DNA of 64,000 nt from a virus: the IMG/VR virus record IMGVR_UViG_3300046534_001250, positions 1 to 64,000 of that record; one strand, written 5' to 3'. The stretch's first letter is position 1. Each line of letters opens with the position of its first letter. The notes beneath the pieces were generated by a model. The model was not told where the DNA came from, did no database searches, and saw only the letters and a list, made by a program, of their open reading frames with translations. The translations under genes were made by a program, and so were the position numbers. Below, one piece after another: positions 2,143 through 47,929 of the stretch.

Positions 2143-3864
2143 ATGGATCTACCCGTTTTTGTATTCAGCGAAGACGACTGTGTACCGTTTCCAGGCACAC
2201 AGATGCTACTCGATTTACCATTAGAACGAGCCAAGCTACTCAAGTCAGCAAGCTTAAGAGAAGCAGCAACTGGCAAATACTCTGATCAAATCGCAATAGG
2301 CTTCTCTGTAAGAGACCCTCGGGTTGTAATGAGTTCTATTGATGAATACTCAACTAGTGTCCATGAAATTGGAATACTATGCAGAGTAGATGAACGAGAG
2401 GAATGTGACGACTTTGAACTCATTCACCTTACTGGTATAGAGCGCATCTACTTACACGATTTCAGAATAATGGAATCACCTAGTACAGACCAGTCTATCA
2501 TCTTAACAACACATCAGCCTGTAAGCGAAGACTTCCTAGAAGCAGAAGAAGCTTTGATTCACGACATGGAAAATCTCTTCAATCTCATTACTGAGAATCC
2601 AAAGATTTATCCTGCGCTATTAATCGCAGACATTCAAGCAACTCAAAGTTTAATCTCAAAGATGAATAAGCTAGCAGACTATCTGCTAGGAAGTCCGCAA
2701 GAAAGAATTAAGTATCTATTAGAAGATGATAACTATGTTCGATGGGATAGTATAGTTACGCTAACCGTAGCTATGGCTGCTAAGCGACCTAAGATGTCTG
2801 GAAAAAAGAAGAAACCAGTTATAAAGAAGCAGCCAGCAAAAGAAATAACTGTCCCAGAGCAAGCTCTGCAGCTTCCATTAGACGAAGACTCTATGCGCAA
2901 CATTAAGCGCGAAGTAAATAAGTTAGAGAACTTGGCCAAAAGCAGTACAGAGTACGCTATGGTTATGGACTACTTAGATTGGGTTGTATCTGTTCCCTGG
3001 AAAAACACATCCTATAAAGACTTTGATCTGTCTAAGCTAAGAGAAACTTTGGATGAGACTCATTATGGTCTTGACGAAGTCAAAGCCCATATTCTAGAGC
3101 ATCTAGTTGTTGAACGACTACGCGGTGGTAACACCGGTACAGTATTATGCTTTGTCGGTTCGCCCGGTACAGGAAAAACTAGTATTGCTCAGCAGATTGC
3201 AAAAGCAACTCATAGACCCTTGCAACGAATTGCATTGGGCGGGCTAAGCGACGAAGCGGAAATTCGAGGTCACCGCAGAACTTACGTAGCTAGTAAGCCA
3301 GGTAGATTTATCACCGGGCTAAAGACCGCCAAAGCTATGGACCCGCTCTTTCTTCTAGATGAGGTCGATAAGATAGCTAAGTTCAAAGGCGATCCCATGA
3401 CAGCGCTTCTAGAGGTCTTAGACCCAGAGCAAAATCATTCCTTCGTTGACAGATACCTAGAGGTACCAGTGAACTTAAGCCAAGCTATGTTCATTTGTAC
3501 CGCAAACAATAAAGCAGACATTGACCCAGCCTTATTAGATAGAATGGAACTGATTGAGTTCCGAGATTACACTCTCGAAGAAAGAACACACATTACAACC
3601 AACTATCTAATGCCCAAGGTATTAAGCTTCTACAAGCTAGAAAGCTTTAATATTGTTTTCGATCCTACGCTGATTGATGTACTGTGTAAAAACAGTATAC
3701 AGATTAGACAGATTGAAAAAGACATAGCAAAGCTGCTTAGGATGGCTGCAGTCAAAATTCATGTACATGGAAGTGAGAGAGTTATCATTGATAGCGATTT
3801 CTCCGACCAAGTACTCAACAAATATAAAAGTAAAAACAAGCCCATTGGGTTTGGAGGACGATAA
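2143..3864 (+). CDS. Lon-family AAA+ ATPase (Lon N domain + AAA+), no protease domain, C-terminal IGF tail
   Basis: LPVF..VPFPG N-terminus; LDETHYGLDEVKAHILE; Walker A GSPGTGKTS; DEAEIRGHRRTY; Walker B LLDEVDK; LLDRMELI; ends KPIGFGGR with no PKDGPSAG. Confidence 0.92.
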   Translation: MDLPVFVFSEDDCVPFPGTQMLLDLPLERAKLLKSASLREAATGKYSDQIAIGFSVRDPRVVMSSIDEYSTSVHEIGILCRVDEREECDDFELIHLTGIERIYLHDFRIMESPSTDQSIILTTHQPVSEDFLEAEEALIHDMENLFNLITENPKIYPALLIADIQATQSLISKMNKLADYLLGSPQERIKYLLEDDNYVRWDSIVTLTVAMAAKRPKMSGKKKKPVIKKQPAKEITVPEQALQLPLDEDSMRNIKREVNKLENLAKSSTEYAMVMDYLDWVVSVPWKNTSYKDFDLSKLRETLDETHYGLDEVKAHILEHLVVERLRGGNTGTVLCFVGSPGTGKTSIAQQIAKATHRPLQRIALGGLSDEAEIRGHRRTYVASKPGRFITGLKTAKAMDPLFLLDEVDKIAKFKGDPMTALLEVLDPEQNHSFVDRYLEVPVNLSQAMFICTANNKADIDPALLDRMELIEFRDYTLEERTHITTNYLMPKVLSFYKLESFNIVFDPTLIDVLCKNSIQIRQIEKDIAKLLRMAAVKIHVHGSERVIIDSDFSDQVLNKYKSKNKPIGFGGR

Positions 3865-4049
3865 TGATTCAAATCACACTAGACAAGCTACCACAGCGTA
3901 TTTGGTTCGCAAAGAATACTAAGACCGGCAAAGCCCAGATTAGATTCAGTCGAGGCGAAGTACGTGATATTCGAGATGACGCTAAAGCCAAAGGAGAAGC
4001 TATGACCATCGGGTCATATGCTACACCAACGGTTGCGACCCACGGATAG
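3864..4049 (+). CDS. Small hypothetical protein
   Basis: TAATG coupling to the Lon-like gene. Confidence 0.6.
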   Translation: MIQITLDKLPQRIWFAKNTKTGKAQIRFSRGEVRDIRDDAKAKGEAMTIGSYATPTVATHG

Positions 4050-4088
4050 GTCTTGGCCCCTTACAGGGCCTTTGTTTCAAAGGCAGTC

Positions 4089-4313
4089 ATGAATTTATAT
4101 TGTATCAATTTAGACATCTGTGGCTGGTTTGGAGAGTTCGCTGATGACAGTGAATTCTCCTGCCCTGTTTGCCACGCTTTAGCTATTCCGCTAGAGAAAT
4201 TAAGAACGGAAAAAGATGAACTTATTAACCAGTTCGTCTTCGCAGAAGCTGACCTCCCTGGTGAATCTTCACAAAGAGAACCAGAAGATCCAATGGAAGA
4301 TTCTGACTCCTAA
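4089..4313 (+). CDS. Small Zn-ribbon protein with acidic tail
   Basis: C-x5-C...CPVC. Confidence 0.55.
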   Translation: MNLYCINLDICGWFGEFADDSEFSCPVCHALAIPLEKLRTEKDELINQFVFAEADLPGESSQREPEDPMEDSDS

Positions 4314-4773
4314 TACTGAAGTCACACGTTTGCGAGCCTTGTTAGGCGTTTCACAAACTTACTATTCCAAAACAAAATCAGGGTTGTTGACCTCCGCAAA
4401 GATGAGGCAATTGCAAACAGTGGGTATTCACCCCACTAAGACCCACTATCATAAAGGACTGGTGAGTACAGTACTCTATACCAAGGGATTAAACCTTGAT
4501 CTGTCGGCTATTGACGCACACATAAGGACCACTGATAGCGCTGAGATTAACAACCTTCATATTGAAGCTAGCATACTTCAATACTTAGCTTTTAATAAAC
4601 AAGGCGTCTCTACGAAAGAAGCATTAAAAGAAAGAAACAAACGACTATGTGTAATCGCTAAAGTAGCTTTACCTTCCTATGTTTGGGAAGAGCTTAGATC
4701 CACAAAAACGTTTATGAAAAACACAGCCCCTTATGTTGGGCTGTACAAGGCATCACTCAATGAATCTAAATGA
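4216..4773 (+). CDS. Hypothetical protein
   Basis: 185-aa ORF overlapping neighbours in operon fashion. Confidence 0.6.
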   Translation: MNLLTSSSSQKLTSLVNLHKENQKIQWKILTPNTEVTRLRALLGVSQTYYSKTKSGLLTSAKMRQLQTVGIHPTKTHYHKGLVSTVLYTKGLNLDLSAIDAHIRTTDSAEINNLHIEASILQYLAFNKQGVSTKEALKERNKRLCVIAKVALPSYVWEELRSTKTFMKNTAPYVGLYKASLNESK

Positions 4774-7066
4774 CAATTTCAACTTCATCTTGCCATACTC
4801 TATTGGCGGCAATGCTTCAAATCTATCTCTGGAGGCATCTAGAAACTTTGCTACGTATTACTCTGGATATAGAGGATGGTGTGCAGAGAATATATCCATT
4901 GACGAAGGCCCTGACAGATACTCTTACACGTCGCGGTCAAGCCTTACACTAACAAGAAATTGGTTAGTTCCAAGATTTGAAATTGATACTCCAACATGGT
5001 TTGTCAGATGCTCAAGTATTGAAACTTGGTCTAGAAGAGAAAGCGTAATTTCCAACGCTAGTTTGCCTGCAAAACACAATAGAGATTTACCATTCTTGTG
5101 GGTAATTCCAAAGCCTGCTGTAGTTGAAAACGGATATTCATATGCTGACTCAGAAACAATTGCGTACTTAGAAAGCCCACTGTTTTCTATAGCAGTCGCA
5201 GGGGATCCACTAGAAGGATCGCAGGGGCTTAACGGTACTAATAACATTAGGCATCAGCGCCACCAGCATGGCGTCTTGCGCATCTTTTCCAAAGAACAAG
5301 CAAGCGAATTGATTCCAGAGTTAGAGAACAAAGTCCCTACGATTAAAATCACAGGGCTGACCAGAGCTACTCCAGCTAACCCAAAGCCTAGTTATTCACT
5401 CAAGAAGCAAACCAAAGCACAAATCTTATCTGGCCAACGGCTATTCAGTTATATCCAGATAGTTACTGTCGTCGCAAACGACGGAACAGAAACTACAGAA
5501 AACTTGATTTCAGTAGGAATAGTTGGAGATGAAATACTCTTGAACTCCAGATACTCCGCTATATGTCTTCTAGCATTGATTGAATTTATTACATCAACAG
5601 AGTGGATAAATGATATCAAGTACCCGAACCAGGCTATTGTTCGAAACTTTTCTAGCGATCCAGAGTTCTGTCTATATTCTCAACCAACTGTGCCGTTTAA
5701 TATCAGCAATATCCCTGACACCAGCCACACGTCATTAAAAAACAGAGAGGCTAGCGATCTTACAGTCTTGAACTCTAGCGAAAGTGTTACTCGTGCACCG
5801 TTTGCCAGAACTTATTTGGCGGCAGTAAACAAAGTGGAATCTTACAGAGATCAAATTAAATCAATAGAGCAGGAAAGGAAGAGACACGAACAATTGATCC
5901 TTGAACACACCAGTTATATTGCAGAACGTACGCGTAAGATTGATCGGCTACAGAAAGATATCCTGACCGATAAAATACTTGTCAGAGAGGAACGACAAAA
6001 GGCTTTAATTGCTTCAGAAGCAATTCTCAAGCAAACTGATATCGTTGAAGTACTGACTCCGCAACTAGATGGACTTAAGGAGCTATTTAATAGCAAGTTA
6101 GAAAAATATACAGCTGAAGGAAGTTCTGTTCCTGCACTGGATAAGTATTTGTCCAACATGGGAATCAAGATTACTAAGTTGACATTCTTTGATGCTGAAG
6201 GCGAAACCATCAAATCACAAGACGTAGATGTAACCGGCATCCTTATGAATAGGTATGCAATCAAGAGTATGTCTTTTGAAACAACCCGACCTATGAACAT
6301 CAACGTACTGGATACTAACAAGCAAGTAGTTGATACTAGAGTCGGTGGACCATACCGTGTACGTCTCAAGCGATGTGCTGTACAGGAACGCTTTCAAGTA
6401 CGGATTAATGCATTAAGTCATGACAGTATTATAGGCATCGAACCTGTAACAAACACCGGCATCTTTTACGCAAAAGCCCATCCTCATACTGGCTGTTCTG
6501 CCTTGAAAAGAGATGATTATGTATCAGGGCTTGAAAGTCTTGTAAGCCAAGATATTGAACCATGTCTAGGCGAAGCCGAAGCAGCACTAGCTACTGCTAG
6601 CAAAACAAATAACATCAAAATGATTTTATTTGCAATGCTATCTTGGCTCAAGAATGCATACAAAGACGATCAATGGGGCAGGACCGCAGCCTGGTTTCCT
6701 AAGCCACGTTACATCGCTAATATGCTATTAGGAGAGGAGCTTGCTGCAGCAAAAATAGCTGTTTCTAACAATGGAATAAGCCTAATAGCTTATGCCAAAA
6801 TTGCATATTCAACAGACTACAGTATAACTTGGAGTCATGATGGAGCAATTGTGTGCGAAGAAGGCATAAGCTACGGTAAAGACCAATACAAGACTCTCTT
6901 ATTTTTCAAGAATAAAGAAGAGGCAAATTACTACATGCGTACACGATCTCAAGATTGGTTATCGTATTATCATAAGTACCATACTACAGATTGGTGCTTA
7001 GAAATTCTTAATGATTTTCCAGCCGAAACAGAAACACAAGAACAAATAGAAGAAATAAATGCATAA
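4760..7066 (+). CDS. Large multidomain protein with coiled coil and prokaryotic E2 (UBC-like) domain; possible C-terminal WGR-like domain
   Basis: AHPH (6479) ... PCLG (6563) ... WLKNAYKDDQWG; upstream of JAB, E1 and Ubl genes. Confidence 0.65.
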   Translation: MNLNDNFNFILPYSIGGNASNLSLEASRNFATYYSGYRGWCAENISIDEGPDRYSYTSRSSLTLTRNWLVPRFEIDTPTWFVRCSSIETWSRRESVISNASLPAKHNRDLPFLWVIPKPAVVENGYSYADSETIAYLESPLFSIAVAGDPLEGSQGLNGTNNIRHQRHQHGVLRIFSKEQASELIPELENKVPTIKITGLTRATPANPKPSYSLKKQTKAQILSGQRLFSYIQIVTVVANDGTETTENLISVGIVGDEILLNSRYSAICLLALIEFITSTEWINDIKYPNQAIVRNFSSDPEFCLYSQPTVPFNISNIPDTSHTSLKNREASDLTVLNSSESVTRAPFARTYLAAVNKVESYRDQIKSIEQERKRHEQLILEHTSYIAERTRKIDRLQKDILTDKILVREERQKALIASEAILKQTDIVEVLTPQLDGLKELFNSKLEKYTAEGSSVPALDKYLSNMGIKITKLTFFDAEGETIKSQDVDVTGILMNRYAIKSMSFETTRPMNINVLDTNKQVVDTRVGGPYRVRLKRCAVQERFQVRINALSHDSIIGIEPVTNTGIFYAKAHPHTGCSALKRDDYVSGLESLVSQDIEPCLGEAEAALATASKTNNIKMILFAMLSWLKNAYKDDQWGRTAAWFPKPRYIANMLLGEELAAAKIAVSNNGISLIAYAKIAYSTDYSITWSHDGAIVCEEGISYGKDQYKTLLFFKNKEEANYYMRTRSQDWLSYYHKYHTTDWCLEILNDFPAETETQEQIEEINA

Positions 7067-8225
7067 AGTAATTGGAACACAAACGATCGTACCTGTTGTA
7101 GGATCTAAAGCTGCTTTAATGATGGACGATACATTGTATCGTCAAACAAAGTATCTAGTTGATTCTCTCAAGACTGACGAAGTCCAGTGGTGGCACCGCG
7201 TCGAGAAAGTAACAGTTGAAGGAGCCACGTATTACATGCTGAAGGATTTGATTATCCCTCATCAAGAGGTACATGCTGCCACTACAGAAGTCGATGGGCA
7301 AAACCAGTACAAGGCTTACCAAGAAATCAAATCTCGCTTTACCCAAGAAGGCACAACAGACACAGAGTCAATGAACAAGTTCATTGGTGGCCTTACTTGC
7401 TGGAGCCACAGTCATGGAAACATGACCGTGGGGCCTTCGCCGCAAGACGAAGCACAGTTTAAGCTGTTCATTGAACAGCAGAGCAAAGATGACTTTGATC
7501 AGATCTTCCTTATGATGATCTGGAACAAGAAAGACGAAATCTATGCTCTCATTTATGATCCTGAAACATGCTTTATGATTGAGAATATTCCTCTGATTGT
7601 ATACTATCCAAATATCGAAACCGACTATATTGACGACGCTGTCGCCAATAAGGTCACAAAAAAAAAGCAAACGTATACACCAGTCAGTCAAACAACCTAC
7701 AGTGGGAAGAATGCCAAGGCTGGGAAGAGTACTACGAACAGCAAAGTCAACAATATGGCTCGGCGTATTCCTAGTGTGGGCGGACTTACGGGCAAGATTC
7801 GGACTCGCGCCTTTCAGCTGGGACAAATTGTCACTCAGTTCAGCAACCGACCTTCCGAACTGACAGAGTTAATGGAGATCTTCACGACTCATCTTGGCCA
7901 TAATGCCAATGCAATTCGTGCTCTCCGAATGCTTATCCACGGTGACTACAAGAACAAGGACCAGTTGAAAGCTTTTGAAAACTGGGACGAATCAGATTAC
8001 GAATTTGAAGTGATGGCGCTAGACAACCTTCTTAACACCGAATGGATTCCTAGCAATGGAATTATTGTACGCTCTCTAGATGTTGTGTCGTTTCTAACGA
8101 AACGACCTTCTCCCATGATTGGTTATGTTATTGACAACTTTTATGAATACTACGATGCTGTATACGAAGAAGCAGCAAAAGCAGTTCCTCAGCTAGAGGA
8201 TGGCGATCATGTCCGCAGTCTATAG
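7059..8225 (+). CDS. JAB/MPN+ (JAMM) metallopeptidase, deubiquitinase-like
   Basis: E(VQW)...HSH-GNMTVGP-S-PQ-D matches E..HxHx7SxxD. Confidence 0.88.
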   Translation: MHKVIGTQTIVPVVGSKAALMMDDTLYRQTKYLVDSLKTDEVQWWHRVEKVTVEGATYYMLKDLIIPHQEVHAATTEVDGQNQYKAYQEIKSRFTQEGTTDTESMNKFIGGLTCWSHSHGNMTVGPSPQDEAQFKLFIEQQSKDDFDQIFLMMIWNKKDEIYALIYDPETCFMIENIPLIVYYPNIETDYIDDAVANKVTKKKQTYTPVSQTTYSGKNAKAGKSTTNSKVNNMARRIPSVGGLTGKIRTRAFQLGQIVTQFSNRPSELTELMEIFTTHLGHNANAIRALRMLIHGDYKNKDQLKAFENWDESDYEFEVMALDNLLNTEWIPSNGIIVRSLDVVSFLTKRPSPMIGYVIDNFYEYYDAVYEEAAKAVPQLEDGDHVRSL

Positions 8226-8904
8226 ACCTACCTTCCTCAGGGCTGCCGCATGGGTAGGCCCGGCTATGTTGACCGACGTTGTTACTATCGTTGGTTGCGG
8301 AGCGACAGGATCATACATCGCAGTTGCTTTAGCCAAGATGGGATTCACCCAGTTCTGTATCTACGATTCAGATTTAGTAGAGCCACACAACTTGCCAAAC
8401 CAAGAGTATGACTCTCGGCATGTTGGAATGCTCAAGGTTGACGCTCTTGAGCTTAAATTGATGGAGTTTAATCCAGATATTACAGTCACAAAAAACAACG
8501 AGTTCTTCACCTCAGATACAGTCATTTCAGATTTCGGCCCAGTCATTTTGACTACAGATACCAATAGTAGTCGTGTCGAAATCATGAATGTATGTAAAGG
8601 AAATTTGATGGTTGACCACGTATTTGAAACCAGACTTGGGTTTCATCACGGCGAAGTTGCCATCGTTGATAATCATGATTCAGAATCCGTTGAAAAATGG
8701 CTGAATACAGTAAAGCCAGATGATGAAATACCAGATGGGCCTTGCAATGAGCGTACATGTACTACTCTAGTAATGATGATTGCCGCGTTTACCGTGCATC
8801 AAATCTGTGAGAAATACAGTGCAGCTACCAAAGATGAAAGATGGATATATAACAAACGAACTCTGATTCAAATGAATCCGAGTCTTACCGTACTCAGTAT
8901 GTAA
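8200..8904 (+). CDS. ThiF/E1-like ubiquitin-like activating enzyme
   Basis: IVGCGATGS; YDSDLVEPHNLPNQ; KV..L; TTD; TRLG; C-terminal Cys residues. Confidence 0.92.
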   Translation: MAIMSAVYRPTFLRAAAWVGPAMLTDVVTIVGCGATGSYIAVALAKMGFTQFCIYDSDLVEPHNLPNQEYDSRHVGMLKVDALELKLMEFNPDITVTKNNEFFTSDTVISDFGPVILTTDTNSSRVEIMNVCKGNLMVDHVFETRLGFHHGEVAIVDNHDSESVEKWLNTVKPDDEIPDGPCNERTCTTLVMMIAAFTVHQICEKYSAATKDERWIYNKRTLIQMNPSLTVLSM

Positions 8905-8913
8905 GGAGAAACA

Positions 8914-9129
8914 ATGGTTGTTTCACTAGTAATTTTCCCAGGCCGTGGCCTTGATGGACACGTCGTTCTTGAAGCAGGCGCAAGTTTGCAAGACCTCGTA
9001 AACAAGCGTGACCTTTCCGGTCGTAGCCTCTGCGTCAATGGCGAAGAAATTCCAAGCTCTGCTTGGGAATCTACCATTCTTGAAAGCGGCTGGGAAGTCG
9101 CTGCTCTGAGCCCTTCTAAGGGCAACTAA
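8914..9129 (+). CDS. Ubiquitin-like beta-grasp protein (ThiS/MoaD-like) ending KGN
   Basis: VNGEEIP..W.ST.LESG.EV pattern, penultimate Gly, strong AAGGAG RBS. Confidence 0.82.
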   Translation: MVVSLVIFPGRGLDGHVVLEAGASLQDLVNKRDLSGRSLCVNGEEIPSSAWESTILESGWEVAALSPSKGN

Positions 9130-9131
9130 TA

Positions 9132-9162
9132 GTACGAGCCCCTTCGGGGGCTCTACTTTTTT
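9132..9162 (+). terminator. Intrinsic terminator closing the Ubl operon
   Basis: GAGCCCC-TTCG-GGGGCTC then T tract. Confidence 0.85.
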
Positions 9163-9341: not shown

Positions 9342-10271
9342 ATGTTACAAATCACAGACCTAACAGTTTCGCCACAGTTTGTTGATCAGATGTATTCAGA
9401 GGGAACTGTTAAGAAAAACGCTCCATCTAATATTCCAGTCAACAGCTATGTCTTGTTTAGGGATGAAACCAATCCAAAGCATACTGCTTTAGCTAGATAC
9501 TTAGGCGATAACACTTGGCAACGTATTGCATCTAATTCCAGTTTGCAAACACAAGGAATTTCTCCAAAAGATGCTTACCAATGCGCATTTGTTGATGCGC
9601 TAAAAGCTCCAGGAACACTACTCAACGTAGCAACTGGTGCGGCTGGAACAGGTAAGACTCTGCTTGCGATGGCACACGCTATTGACCAATGGATGACGAC
9701 TCGTAAAAAGATTATCTTGTCTAAGCCTACCTCTATGGTTGGTAGCGGATCCGCTTTTGGGCCTGTGCCTGGTGACATTGAACAAAAGTATGCACCTTAT
9801 CTGGCTTCTTACGATATCGTATTGAAGAAAGTGTTAGGAGACTCTTACACAGGTTTTGTCAATTCAGCTATGAAGAATGGAGACATCGAGTTTGTGCCAA
9901 TTGAATTGTCTCGCGGTTGCACTTATGAAAATGCAACCTTTATTCTCGATGAAGCACAGAACCTTTCATGGCATGAGTTAAACACCATCGTCTCTCGTAT
10001 GGGTCAAGGCACAAACCTTATTATCCTAGGGGATCTAAATCAAATCGATACAGATTCTTACAAAACAGATACAGGACTATGGAAGTTTCTACGAAGCACT
10101 CCGTTTAATAAGAGCAATATCACCAGTTCAATTCAGCTAAAGACTCAATACCGTAGTCCGATTACACAATTGGTCTCAGATGTAAACGATTGGATTATTG
10201 AAGATGCAAAGCAAGCAAGAAACAGTAGACGCGATCTTCCAGCAACTAACAGCACATCCGACGAAGGATAG
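9342..10271 (+). CDS. phoH: PhoH-like ATPase
   Basis: GAAGTGKT; PGDIEQK; RGCTY..FILDEAQN; GDLNQID; RS. Confidence 0.92.
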   Translation: MLQITDLTVSPQFVDQMYSEGTVKKNAPSNIPVNSYVLFRDETNPKHTALARYLGDNTWQRIASNSSLQTQGISPKDAYQCAFVDALKAPGTLLNVATGAAGTGKTLLAMAHAIDQWMTTRKKIILSKPTSMVGSGSAFGPVPGDIEQKYAPYLASYDIVLKKVLGDSYTGFVNSAMKNGDIEFVPIELSRGCTYENATFILDEAQNLSWHELNTIVSRMGQGTNLIILGDLNQIDTDSYKTDTGLWKFLRSTPFNKSNITSSIQLKTQYRSPITQLVSDVNDWIIEDAKQARNSRRDLPATNSTSDEG

Positions 10272-10474: not shown

Positions 10475-10921
10475 ATGCCCAGACACGGCGTAATGAAATT
10501 TTATAAGTCTTTAGGCGCAGCACAATTTACGCTGCTGCCAGTAAAGCGAAACGATAAAGAATTTGTGGAAAGAGAAGGAGGTATTTTAGTTGAGGTCGCC
10601 CCAGGCGATGGCAAACGAGATAATCCAAACTGGGATTGGGACAGGAAGATCTCATTTGCAATTAGTTTTAACGACATTTGCAATCTCCTAGACCAAGACC
10701 CAGCTAAGCACCGCATCTTCCATAAACATAAGGACTCCCCCAAGACATTGCATTTTCAACCAGCTACCGATGAAAGGTATGCAGGTACGTTTATGCTACA
10801 GTTAGCAATGGGGTCCGGATCAAATAGACAAGCAGTATCAGTTCCCATTACAAATGGTGAACATGGCGCAATTATGCGTATGCTAGTAGCAGCACTACCT
10901 AAGTTAGTAGCATGGGAATAA
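10475..10921 (+). CDS. Whirly-like ssDNA-binding protein
   Basis: FYKSLGAA / REGGILVEVAP / WDWDRKISFAISFNDI / IFH..KTLHFQP / VPITNGE parallel the plant Whirly motifs in order. Confidence 0.75.
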   Translation: MPRHGVMKFYKSLGAAQFTLLPVKRNDKEFVEREGGILVEVAPGDGKRDNPNWDWDRKISFAISFNDICNLLDQDPAKHRIFHKHKDSPKTLHFQPATDERYAGTFMLQLAMGSGSNRQAVSVPITNGEHGAIMRMLVAALPKLVAWE

Positions 10922-47263: not shown

Positions 47264-47929
47264 ATGACAGAAGATGAAACCGTAGTCGAAGAGCCAGTTG
47301 AAGAGGAAGGCGTTGAAGGCTTTGATCTCGCAACCTTAATAGGCGGAAGCTCACAAGAAGTATGGAGACCAGACACGGTTGCTTTCTTTGGCTCAGCCAA
47401 TAGGAGTATCTTGATGTCAGGAGAGGTAGACCAGTCAATGGCAGACGCCATGATCGGGCAACTCCTTCAGCTAGACGAAGAATCTAACGACCCAATCGTA
47501 GTCTATATCAATACTCCAGGTGGAGAATTAGATAACGCACTTGCTATCTACGATACGATGCAGACTGTCGCTAGTCCAATCTTTACGATTGCAGTCGGAT
47601 CATGCATGAGCGCAGGGCTATTGCTCCTTCAAGGTGGAGACGTAAGATCGTCTATGCCGAGAACAAGGCTCATGTATCATGAGCCAATGGCTGGTGCCAA
47701 CGCCTTCAATAGCGAAGGTGCTGATGCTTTCGCAGCAAACTACGCTTGGGCCAAGCAGCAAATGAAAGAGATCCTGACAGAAGGAACGAACATCACCGAG
47801 AAAGTGTGGAAAGACACTTTCGCAGGGAAGACTGCAATGTTCCTTTCGGCTCAAGAAGCTCTTGAGCTAGATCTATTAGATGTCATTATGACGTACGCCG
47901 ATAAGGCAGTATTGCCAGATGGCAAGTAG
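47264..47929 (+). CDS. clpP: ClpP-family (S14) peptidase
   Basis: QLLQLD..S.DPI.VYINTPGG; AIYDTMQ; GSCMSAG (Ser); MYHEP (His); FLSAQEA. Confidence 0.9.
   Translation: MTEDETVVEEPVEEEGVEGFDLATLIGGSSQEVWRPDTVAFFGSANRSILMSGEVDQSMADAMIGQLLQLDEESNDPIVVYINTPGGELDNALAIYDTMQTVASPIFTIAVGSCMSAGLLLLQGGDVRSSMPRTRLMYHEPMAGANAFNSEGADAFAANYAWAKQQMKEILTEGTNITEKVWKDTFAGKTAMFLSAQEALELDLLDVIMTYADKAVLPDGK

What the first reader, a model, noticed from the sequence alone, without database searches (positions are those of the whole stretch)
4760..9129. Complete phage-encoded E2-JAB-E1-Ubl operon
Seen: tightly coupled genes with HPH...CLG (E2-like), an intact JAMM motif, ThiF/E1 nucleotide-binding motifs and a 71-aa beta-grasp protein ending K-G-N, closed by a terminator. 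No thiamine, molybdopterin or tRNA-thiolation genes are nearby. Inference: JAB trims the terminal Asn to expose Gly, then E1 and E2 conjugate the Ubl to targets, so this is protein modification rather than sulfur transfer. It could also counter host Bil or CBASS Cap2-type conjugation.
Basis: partly seen in the sequence, partly recalled or inferred. Interest (0 to 1): 0.85.

Follow-up and report, generated by a model that had tools for sequence, protein, structure and literature searches.

The report
Phage-encoded ubiquitin-like tagging operon
An uncultured phage from ice carries its own ubiquitin-style protein-tagging kit (tag, activating enzyme, carrier enzyme, trimming protease); related kits occur in more than a hundred other phage contigs, some with polyubiquitin-like genes, and I found no paper describing them.

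Summary
Window 4089-9153 is one tightly packed plus-strand block closed by a terminator.

The same gene order recurs in 17 related phage contigs. Some of these carry 2-4 tandem tags, or a tag fused to cargo, each unit ending KGN, so a processing protease is needed. JAB sits next to E1 in 78 of 80 viral loci, including crAss-like phages.

Conjugation chemistry, targets and purpose are untested. The near-invariant Asn is unexplained. I found no evidence for a role against Bil or CBASS. The scan has noted similar phage kits on other DNA. Verdict: a new variant of a known kind, of high interest.

The parts
4048..4071 (+). Terminator-like hairpin that probably closes the upstream unit (Lon-like AAA+ gene and a small ORF) and marks the 5' edge of the block
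4089..4313 (+). 74-aa four-Cys zinc-ribbon protein (C-x5-CG ... CPxC). It lies just upstream of the E2-like gene in 14 related phage loci, abutting or overlapping it in 9 of them. Candidate fifth component of the module.
   Evidence: weak zinc-ribbon Pfam hits
4216..4773 (+). 185-aa ORF with no homologue in any fetched locus or library. It overlaps the zinc-ribbon ORF in another frame. Coding status uncertain.
4733..7066 (+). E2-like protein of 777 aa (768 aa from the called start at 4760): unassigned N-terminal region, coiled coil, UBC-like domain, variable C-terminal tail
6125..6742 (+). UBC/E2-like catalytic domain (residues about 465-670). HPH is at 6479-6487. Compared with canonical E2s, about 20 extra residues, modelled as a helix, lie between HPH and the Cys.
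6563..6565 (+). Cys611 codon (TGT), invariant in 150 homologues. It aligns to the catalytic Cys of E2s through the sister family. Predicted thioester site.
7059..8225 (+). JAMM/MPN+ metalloprotease, 388 aa: catalytic domain in residues about 1-200, then an unassigned C-terminal domain
7407..7448 (+). JAMM zinc site H117-S-H119-x7-S127-x2-D130. The catalytic Glu41 is at 7179-7181.
   Evidence: all invariant in 22 sequences
8200..8904 (+). Minimal single-domain ThiF-type E1 of 234 aa (231 aa from the likelier start at 8209). Features: GxGxxGS at 8293-8313, Asp120, Arg125, and invariant Cys182 at 8743-8745.
8914..9129 (+). 71-aa ThiS/SAMP-like beta-grasp Ubl. The K-G-N codons are at 9118-9126.
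9136..9153 (+). Intrinsic terminator-like hairpin (7 bp, 6 GC) followed by a T-run. It closes the block.
2143..3864 (+). Context: Lon-like AAA+ ATPase, conserved 2-3 kb upstream of the module in at least 10 related loci
9342..10271 (+). Context: PhoH-like ATPase, conserved downstream of the module in 17 related phage loci

Best explanation
This is a phage-encoded ubiquitin-like protein-conjugation cascade. The proposed steps are as follows.
1. The JAMM protease cuts the Ubl precursor after Gly70, removing Asn71. In relatives it would cut tandem Ubls and Ubl-cargo fusions at each KG|N.
2. The minimal ThiF-type E1 adenylates the exposed Gly. It probably then holds the Ubl on its invariant Cys182.
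3. The Ubl passes to Cys611 of the UBC-like domain at the C-terminal end of the 777-aa protein.
4. The large N-terminal region and coiled coil of that protein, perhaps with the small zinc-ribbon partner, select the targets, so that it acts as an E2/E3 hybrid.
5. The JAMM enzyme may also reverse the conjugates.

What is shown computationally: the identity of the four families, intact catalytic residues, conservation of the operon, and precursor genes that require processing.

What is inferred: the thioester relay, isopeptide products, targets and biological purpose. The most likely purpose is remodelling or tagging of host or phage proteins early in infection.
For: E1:
- Pfam ThiF 2e-23, over its cut-off. 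PADLOC E1-E2 models at 1e-18.
- Solved relatives are Uba4, UBA5, MccB, ThiF and MoeB.
- The nucleotide loop, Asp120, Arg125 and Cys182 are invariant in 16 homologues.

JAB:
- E41, H117, S118, H119, S127 and D130 are invariant.
- 17 of 19 profile hits in the PDB are JAMM deubiquitinases: BRCC36 at 0.0068, Rpn11 at 0.016, archaeal JAMM1 at 0.047.

Ubl:
- The profile hits SAMP2 at 1.1e-4 and ThiS at 8.5e-4. These alignments stop at profile position 69 of 70, i.e. at about the Gly of KGN.

E2-like protein:
- 192 homologues share a core at residues 500-660. P584, H585, C611 and G613 are invariant in 150.
- Proteins at the same operon position elsewhere carry HPHVSxxGxPC[LW]G, the canonical E2 spacing.
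- Their profile hits almost only E2s in the PDB: most of the 60 rows listed, best UBE2L3 at 0.0016, with HPH on HPN and Cys on Cys86.
- hhalign of the P0001 family against that profile gives 94.8%, E 4.9e-8, with HPH and Cys in register.

Operon:
- Gene order E2-like, JAB, E1, Ubl(s), PhoH recurs in 17 phage loci.
- JAB is adjacent to E1 in 78 of 80 viral loci.

Processing:
- Poly-Ubl ORFs of 2-4 units and Ubl-cargo fusions each end a unit in SVKGN.
- BilC gives an experimental precedent for a one-residue cap (PMC10557695).

No sulfur-pathway partner occurs in the 82-kb record.
Against: - No experiment exists.
- P0001 matches no Pfam, NCBIfam, PHROG or PADLOC E2 model.
- The link to solved E2s is transitive and rests on a marginal E-value (0.0016).
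- The HPH-to-Cys spacing is about 25 residues, against 7-8 in E2s.
- The E1 lacks the separate Cys domain and the ubiquitin-fold domain that canonical E1s use to recruit E2s.
- Asn after the Gly is conserved in over 90% of tags, which a mere removable cap does not explain.
Confidence: 0.62

Rival explanations
1. E2-independent tagging. E1, JAB and Ubl would work as in archaeal SAMP/UbaA or Urm1/Uba4, with the E1 alone driving conjugation. The 777-aa protein would then be a non-catalytic UBC-fold scaffold, an adaptor, or the main substrate, not a thioester carrier.
For: - The best Ubl matches are SAMP2 and ThiS. The E1 is a minimal MoeB/ThiF-size enzyme like UbaA. From my knowledge of the SAMP/UbaA and Urm1/Uba4 systems, not tested here, those need no E2.
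- The structural similarity of the large protein to E2 is weak.
Against: - The Cys, the HPH and the following Gly are invariant in all 150 homologues and in the sister family. That pattern is expected of an active site, not a scaffold.
- The Cys aligns with the E2 catalytic Cys.
- A protein with this domain sits next to JAB-E1 across very distant phage lineages.
Confidence: 0.17
2. Sulfur carrier. The Ubl would be adenylated and converted to a thiocarboxylate that donates sulfur, for example to tRNA, DNA or a cofactor. JAB would only mature the carrier.
For: ThiS and ThiF are among the nearest named families. SAMP and Urm1 are dual-function precedents (PMC5349211, listed).
Against: - No rhodanese, MoaE, ThiG or PP-loop thiolase is present in the 82-kb record, though the record is only about 62% complete.
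- The E1 has no rhodanese domain.
- Poly-Ubl genes, Ubl-cargo fusions and an invariant-Cys E2-like partner are hallmarks of modifier systems, not of sulfur carriers.
Confidence: 0.07
3. Asn-based chemistry. The conserved terminal Asn would be kept and would itself be the activated residue, as in the microcin C pathway. As I recall that pathway (not checked here), the E1-like MccB adenylates a C-terminal Asn through a succinimide intermediate. Alternatively, Asn cyclisation would self-cleave the poly-Ubl precursors. Either route gives a product other than a Gly-Lys isopeptide.
For: - K-G-N is over 90% conserved across distant lineages, and many tags end exactly at Asn.
- MccB is among the solved relatives of the E1, at about 2e-6.
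Against: - MccB scores no better than Uba4, UBA5 or TcdA.
- The 231-aa E1 has no room for an extra N-terminal peptide-binding domain; MccB chains are about 350 aa.
- Gly70, not Asn71, lines up with the reactive Gly of SAMP2 and ThiS.
- A few family members replace Asn (KGA, AGS, GGR).
- An intact JAMM protease is always present, which self-cleavage would make unnecessary.
Confidence: 0.05

Closest known systems
Bil (BilABCD) anti-phage ubiquitin-like conjugation systems of bacteria (PMC10557695; bioRxiv 10.1101/2023.09.04.556158)
   Same: Same four-part logic: Ubl, E2 with a catalytic Cys, JAB/JAMM peptidase and E1. The JAB pre-processes the Ubl by removing a short C-terminal cap (BilC cuts Gly97|Ala98). 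Both belong to the phage-host conflict.
   Different: - Bil is encoded by the host and acts against phages; this module is encoded by the phage.
[quoted passage not shown] Here the E1 is a single 231-aa ThiF-size domain.
- This E2-like domain sits at the end of a 777-aa coiled-coil protein and has about 20 extra residues between HPH and Cys.
- The gene order differs.
- No PADLOC E2 or Ubl model matched any of the proteins; only the E1 matched (E1-E2 models) and, weakly, the JAB.
- The tag is a single ThiS/SAMP-like beta-grasp ending KGN.
Archaeal SAMP / UbaA / HvJAMM1 sampylation, including the Pyrococcus JAMM1-SAMP2 complex (PDB 5lda)
   Same: The nearest sequence relatives of the tag (SAMP2, E 1.1e-4) and hits for the protease (JAMM1) come from this system. 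It also uses a minimal MoeB/ThiF-type E1 and a JAMM enzyme that cleaves the tag.
   Different: From my knowledge of sampylation, not tested here, it has no E2. Here an E2-like protein with an invariant Cys is always adjacent. I know of no SAMP gene arranged as tandem repeats or cargo fusions.
Eukaryotic ubiquitin genes (polyubiquitin, ubiquitin-ribosomal protein fusions) and canonical E2 enzymes such as UBE2L3 and UBE2N
   Same: - Relatives of this operon encode 2-4 head-to-tail tags, and tags fused to a basic Gly/Arg-rich tail or to a 94-aa domain, all needing proteolytic release. From general knowledge, ubiquitin precursor genes have this same format.
- The sister E2-like family aligns with UBE2L3 from helix 1 through HPN to the catalytic Cys.
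   Different: The tag is ThiS/SAMP-like, not ubiquitin-like in sequence. It ends KG-N, not GG. The E1 is minimal. The E2-like domain is highly diverged and matches no Pfam UQ_con or Prok-E2 model at threshold.
Type II CBASS Cap2 (E2-E1 fusion) / Cap3 (JAB) and Bub operons (PMC10097602; PMC11601596)
   Same: The E1 adenylation domain scores best against PADLOC Cap2-type E1-E2 models (1e-18) and against the NCBIfam 6A-MBL cap2_3 model. A JAB partner is present.
   Different: - There is no E1-E2 fusion, and the tag here is a dedicated Ubl rather than a CD-NTase. I ran no explicit CD-NTase search.
- Bub works through Ser/Tyr oxyesters and has a DUF6527 protease. Here the E2-like and E1 residues are Cys, and no DUF6527 match appeared in the proteins scanned.
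crAss-like phage genes crAss001 gp78-gp77-gp76 (NC_049977.1), annotated as hypothetical, metalloprotease and 'thiamine biosynthesis protein ThiF'
   Same: A distant version of the same three-gene core (coiled-coil E2-like, JAB, E1), in a cultured phage. Upstream proteins of this type from metagenomic loci (crAss001 gp78 itself was not aligned) align to the HPH-type E2-like profile at 97.3%, E 2e-11.
   Different: The motif is PNPHxxxxC.G, with shorter spacing. No separate Ubl gene was detected nearby. The E1 is longer (383 aa). Identity to the window's E1 is only about 24%.

Membership tests
UBC/E2 superfamily | UBC alpha/beta fold (helix 1, beta-meander, active-site loop, helices 2-4) | tested here: inconclusive
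UBC/E2 superfamily | HPN-type motif followed by the catalytic Cys | tested here: met
   H583 (over 90%), P584, H585 and C611 are conserved or invariant in 150 homologues. hhalign places them on the HPH...C of the sister family, and that motif aligns to HPN...Cys86 of UBE2L3. The spacing is about 25 residues here, against 7-8 in E2s.
UBC/E2 superfamily | Sequence-profile similarity to known E2s | tested here: inconclusive
   Directly there is none. Indirectly, the sister-family profile A5 hits almost only E2s, best E 0.0016, and A4 against A5 gives 94.8%, E 4.9e-8. One sister protein gives sub-threshold Pfam hits: Prok-E2_D at 0.0096 and UQ_con at 0.088.
Pfam Prok-E2_A to Prok-E2_E / UQ_con | Score over the family's gathering threshold | tested here: not met
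   P0001 and nine shorter relatives give no hit at E 1 or better. The protein is therefore not filed under these Pfam families, only as a probable diverged member of the superfamily.
JAMM/MPN+ metalloproteases | E ... HxH-x7-S-x2-D zinc and catalytic motif | tested here: met
   E41, H117, S118, H119, S127 and D130 are invariant in 22 sequences.
JAMM/MPN+ metalloproteases | Profile similarity to solved JAMM enzymes | tested here: inconclusive
   17 of 19 PDB hits are JAMM deubiquitinases, but with E-values from 0.0068 to 0.6. PADLOC JAB models score 0.02. There is no Pfam hit.
E1 / ThiF / MoeB adenylyltransferases | Pfam ThiF over threshold, with Rossmann GxGxxG, catalytic Asp and Arg | tested here: met
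   PF00899 scores 83 bits against a cut-off of 28. G32, G34, G37, D56, K79, D120 and R125 are invariant.
E1 / ThiF / MoeB adenylyltransferases | Catalytic Cys forming an E1~Ubl thioester | not testable with these tools
   Cys182 is invariant and Cys203 is 90% conserved. Their role can only be shown biochemically.
ThiS/MoaD/SAMP beta-grasp modifiers | Beta-grasp domain with a reactive C-terminal Gly | tested here: met
   The profile hits SAMP2 at 1.1e-4, ThiS at 8.5e-4 and SAMP2 of 5lda at 0.002. The alignments end at about the Gly of KGN. Pfam ThiS scores 16.5 bits, below its cut-off of 22.5. The Gly is penultimate, so it needs exposure.
Bil (BilABCD) | E1 with tandem inactive/active adenylation domains plus a Cys domain; bilA-B-C-D gene order; host-encoded | tested here: not met
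   The E1 is a single domain of 231-234 aa. The gene order is E2-JAB-E1-Ubl. The record is viral. No PADLOC E2 or Ubl model matched.
Type II CBASS (Cap2/Cap3) | E2-E1 fusion acting on a CD-NTase | tested here: not met
   E1 and the E2-like protein are separate genes, and a dedicated Ubl is present. I ran no explicit CD-NTase search.

The most novel reading that the evidence does not exclude
Phages carry a ubiquitin system of their own with the same genetic grammar as the eukaryotic one: polyubiquitin-type genes, tag-cargo fusion genes, a processing deubiquitinase, and an E2 fused to its own targeting module. In this clade the system would work with the phage's protease-less Lon-like unfoldase (2143-3864) and phage ClpP (47264-47929) to mark host or phage proteins for destruction, making it a viral tag-and-degrade pathway inside bacteria. 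A second unexcluded twist is that the invariant Asn after the Gly gives the tag an activation or cleavage chemistry not seen in other Ubls.
Probability: 0.15. Interest if true: 0.95.

Novelty: new variant of a known kind. Interest (0 to 1): 0.78.

Why it matters
In bacteria, ubiquitin-like conjugation has so far been shown only as a host weapon against phages (Bil, type II CBASS). A complete cascade on the phage side would reverse the roles.

The JAB-E1 core recurs in 78 of 80 phage loci fetched, out of 145 viral contigs that encode an E1 relative. These include the crAss-like phages that are abundant in the human gut. A cultured phage of that group, crAss001 (gp76-gp78), offers a way to test a distant version at the bench.

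The operon also defines a large family of E2-like proteins that none of the libraries I searched (Pfam, NCBIfam, PHROGs, PADLOC) recognises: 192 homologues of P0001, plus sister groups in phages, candidate-phyla bacteria and Myxococcota.

Tandem tags and tag-cargo fusions in relatives show that the 'polyubiquitin' gene format is not confined to eukaryotes.

Identifying the targets would show what a phage gains by tagging proteins. The options include host takeover, counter-defence, degradation and assembly control.

Tried and rejected
- Single-sequence AlphaFold2 of residues 501-777: unusable, pLDDT 35.
- Foldseek of the good model against the PDB: no hit at E 0.001 or better. Against BFVD: only uncharacterised phage proteins.
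- ESM Atlas, for the E2-like domain and for the N-terminal region: nothing usable.
- Complex prediction with E1, Ubl and the E2-like domain: no verdict, score 0.23 against a mark of 0.32. This is not evidence either way.
- Word-index protein search for P0001: found only itself.
- Close-relative scans of viral contigs with single proteins: nothing. The A1 alignment was too diverged to seed a scan.
- Megablast of the region and tblastn of P0001 against GenBank phages: no match.
- E1 against plasmids: one irrelevant hit.
- A merged profile of HPH-type and crAss-type E2-like domains (A8) lost the E2 signal in the PDB.
- Profile of full-length homologues against the PDB: only coiled-coil matches.
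- Sequencing runs: no RNA holder was listed. Contigs from four further ice samples carry the block with 2 SNPs and no indels. That shows presence, not expression.
- Literature searches for a phage-encoded E1/E2/Ubl system found nothing. The search for 'crAss' plus 'ThiF' returned only unrelated papers.
- Filing under Bil, CBASS type II or Bub: rejected, because defining architectural features are not met.

Full report
**Setting.** The window is the first 64 kb of an 82-kb IMG/VR virus record, estimated about 62% complete. It carries rIIA, a split family-B-type DNA polymerase, a primase and tRNA genes. The same phage occurs almost unchanged in contigs from four further ice-metagenome samples. 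Those contigs show two SNPs across the block and no indels.

**Anatomy.** The genes on the plus strand between 4048 and 9153 are listed below.
- A terminator-like hairpin at 4048-4071.
- A 74-aa zinc-ribbon ORF at 4089-4313.
- An ORF at 4216-4773 found in no other locus.
- A 777-aa ORF at 4733-7066. The database gene call starts at 4760.
- A 388-aa ORF at 7059-8225, overlapping the previous gene by 8 nt.
- A 234-aa ORF at 8200-8904. The likelier start is 8209, behind AGAGGA.
- A 71-aa ORF at 8914-9129, behind AAGGAGA.
- A GC-rich hairpin with a T-run at 9136-9153.
- PhoH follows at 9342.

**E1.** The 234-aa protein matches Pfam ThiF at 2e-23, well over threshold. It also matches PADLOC Cap2-type E1-E2 models over its adenylation domain at 1e-18. 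Its solved relatives are ThiF-fold enzymes: Uba4, UBA5, TcdA, MccB, ThiF and MoeB. In 16 homologues the GxGxxGS loop, D56, K79, D120, R125 and Cys182 are invariant. It is a single adenylation domain with no second domain.

**JAB.** Library matches are weak (PADLOC JAB at 0.02). However, an alignment of 22 orthologues from phage loci shows E41, H117, S118, H119, S127 and D130 invariant. This is the full JAMM motif. Of its profile's 19 PDB hits, 17 are JAMM deubiquitinases: BRCC36, Rpn11 and archaeal JAMM1. Residues about 230-388 form an extra domain with no assignment.

**Ubl.** The 71-aa protein is sub-threshold for Pfam ThiS. A profile of 21 orthologues hits SAMP2 (1.1e-4), ThiS (8.5e-4) and the SAMP2 chain of the JAMM1-SAMP2 complex (0.002). 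These alignments stop at profile position 69 of 70, i.e. at about the Gly of K-G-N. Asn71 therefore lies one residue past the position of the reactive Gly.

**The large protein.**
- It has no match in Pfam, PHROGs, PADLOC, NCBIfam or PDB sequences.
- An exhaustive HMMER scan found 192 homologues. Those listed are mostly 400-1150 aa, and their common core is query residues about 500-660.
- In 150 of them P584, H585, C611 and G613 are invariant, and H583 is over 90% conserved.
- With 102 homologues as the alignment, AlphaFold2 models residues 441-777 with a core pLDDT above 90.
- Foldseek found nothing in the PDB.

**A second, independent line comes from relatives.**
- Using the E1 alignment I fetched 80 viral and 80 genome loci.
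- In many of them the gene upstream of JAB-E1 encodes a coiled-coil protein with HPHVSxxGxPC[LW]G. This is the canonical E2 active-site pattern and spacing.
- A profile of 19 such domains hits almost only E2 enzymes in the PDB (most of the 60 rows listed). The best is UBE2L3 at E 0.0016. The alignment runs from helix 1 through the beta-meander to HPN and Cys86; for Ubc13 it covers nearly the whole domain.
- One archaeal member gives sub-threshold Pfam hits to Prok-E2_D and UQ_con at the same motif.
- hhalign of the P0001-family alignment against this profile gives 94.8% probability, E 4.9e-8. HPH aligns on HPH and Cys611 on the catalytic Cys, with an insertion of about 20 residues in the P0001 family. 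The model shows this insertion as an extra helix.

Taken together, the domain at 6125-6742 is very probably a diverged UBC-fold E2. It does not belong to any existing Pfam E2 family.

**Conservation.**
- The order E2-like, JAB, E1, Ubl(s), PhoH is kept in 17 phage loci (L002-L018) at 36-49% E1 identity. Locus L084, a 158-kb contig binned with a Bacteriovoracaceae MAG, shows E2-like, JAB, E1 and Ubl(s) in the same order.
- The zinc-ribbon ORF lies just upstream of the E2-like gene in 14 of these loci.
- A Lon-like AAA+ gene lies 2-3 kb upstream in at least 10.
- Over all 80 viral loci, JAB is adjacent to E1 in 78. A Ubl lies within 6 kb in 40, and 35 of those carry KGN. An HP[HN]..C.G protein lies nearby in 43. 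Only 45 of all 668 ORFs over 200 aa have that motif.
- The remaining loci, many from contigs of about 100 kb like the crAss-like genomes, have an upstream protein with PNPHxxxxC.G. This group aligns to the HPH-type profile at 97.3%, E 2e-11.
- In cultured crAss001 the corresponding genes are gp78 (hypothetical), gp77 (metalloprotease) and gp76 ('thiamine biosynthesis protein ThiF').

**Processing.**
- Tag C-termini are strikingly uniform, (S/A)xKGN. Many ORFs stop right after Asn; others carry 1-14 more residues.
- Seven related loci encode 2-4 head-to-tail tags, each ending SVKGN with the next unit starting at once.
- Several encode a tag fused to a Gly/Arg-rich basic tail, or to a 94-aa domain ending YGWAAC.
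- Such genes make sense only if a protease frees the units. The invariant JAMM enzyme next door is the obvious candidate.
- In the Bil system the JAB enzyme BilC has been shown to cut one residue before the C-terminus, at Gly97|Ala98 (PMC10557695).
- What the cap model does not explain is why the residue after Gly is almost always Asn. It may be a P1' requirement of the protease. I cannot exclude that Asn takes part in the chemistry.

**Mechanism proposed.** JAB exposes Gly70. E1 adenylates it and probably forms a thioester on Cys182. The Ubl moves to Cys611 of the E2-like domain. The N-terminal region, the coiled coil and perhaps the zinc-ribbon protein choose the targets. JAB may also reverse the modification. 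Only the parts list, the intact active sites, the conservation and the need for processing are shown; the rest is inference.

**Purpose.** The purpose is open. The module sits among early and replication genes. In this clade it lies next to a protease-less Lon-like ATPase, and the phage also encodes ClpP at 47264-47929. Tag-and-degrade is therefore conceivable, but the Lon-like gene is separated from the block by a terminator-like site and was found in few of the more distant loci. Nothing supports or contradicts a role against host Bil or CBASS.

**Sulfur transfer is unlikely.** No rhodanese, MoaE, ThiG or PP-loop thiolase is present in the 82-kb record. Tandem tags, cargo fusions and an invariant-Cys E2-like partner are features of modifier systems.

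**Novelty.** Searches of the paper library found host-encoded Bil, Bub and CBASS systems and the 2006 survey of prokaryotic E1/E2/JAB/Ubl operons (PMC1779556). That survey covers phage tail-assembly Ubl-JAB pairs but not this module. I found no description of a phage-encoded E1-E2-JAB-Ubl cascade. BFVD members of the E2-like family are all 'uncharacterized protein'. Earlier notes of this scan report similar phage kits on other DNA (e1-5964143, e1-5885001), so within the scan this is a recurring discovery rather than a unique one. I class it as a new variant of a known kind.

Noticed in passing
window 4089-4313: A 74-aa four-Cys zinc-ribbon ORF (MNLYCINLDICG...CPVC) lies just upstream of the E2-like gene in 14 related phage loci, abutting or overlapping it in 9 of them. 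It may be a fifth component of the module, for example an E3-like or adaptor protein.
   Followed up: partly
window 4216-4773: A 185-aa ORF between the zinc-ribbon and E2-like genes has no homologue in any fetched locus or library. It overlaps the zinc-ribbon ORF by about 100 nt in another frame. L004 has a gap of similar size at this place, but no homologue of this ORF was found there.
   Followed up: partly
L009:9902-11053, L010:5302-5943, L016:9236-9910, L018:9287-9718, L011:9939-10658, L012:9321-9827, L014:8945-9424: Polyubiquitin-like genes in related phages: 2-4 tandem Ubl units, each ending SVKGN. Some are followed by a 94-aa cargo domain ending YGWAAC or by a basic tail GRPSGGGRGNNPPRGK.
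   Followed up: partly
L009:10769-11050; L014:9661-10017: The 94-aa cargo domain fused behind the Ubl repeats has no Pfam match. A similar sequence occurs as a free-standing ORF in L014.
   Followed up: partly
L002:9001-9387 and equivalents in L006, L007, L008, L009, L016, L017: A roughly 125-aa P-loop kinase-like ORF (MKIQIIGLPCSGKTT...) sits between the Ubl and PhoH in many relatives. It is absent from the window, which has a 213-nt gap there.
   Followed up: no
L082 (crAss001, NC_049977.1 81394-85065): crAss001 gp78, gp77 and gp76, annotated as hypothetical, metalloprotease and 'thiamine biosynthesis protein ThiF', look like a distant E2-like/JAB/E1 trio inside the replication gene block. 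No separate Ubl gene was seen. gp76 is 383 aa, so it may carry an extra domain.
   Followed up: partly
L124, L137, L143, L145, L149 (Myxococcota chromosome OZ223209.1): One Myxococcota MAG chromosome holds at least five separate loci with E1 relatives. Two of them have a 954-aa E2-like gene on the opposite strand. This suggests paralogous expansion of the system in a cellular genome.
   Followed up: no
window 47264-47929: The phage encodes ClpP (Pfam CLP_protease, 7e-36), about 40 kb from the Lon-like AAA+ gene at 2143-3864.
   Followed up: partly
window 8027 and 8600: These are the only two differences seen in contigs from other ice-metagenome samples: a synonymous AAC to AAT change in JAB, and GGA to GAA (G134E) in the E1.
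   Followed up: yes
window 10475-10921: A 148-aa ORF downstream of PhoH is conserved in all 17 related loci.
   Followed up: no
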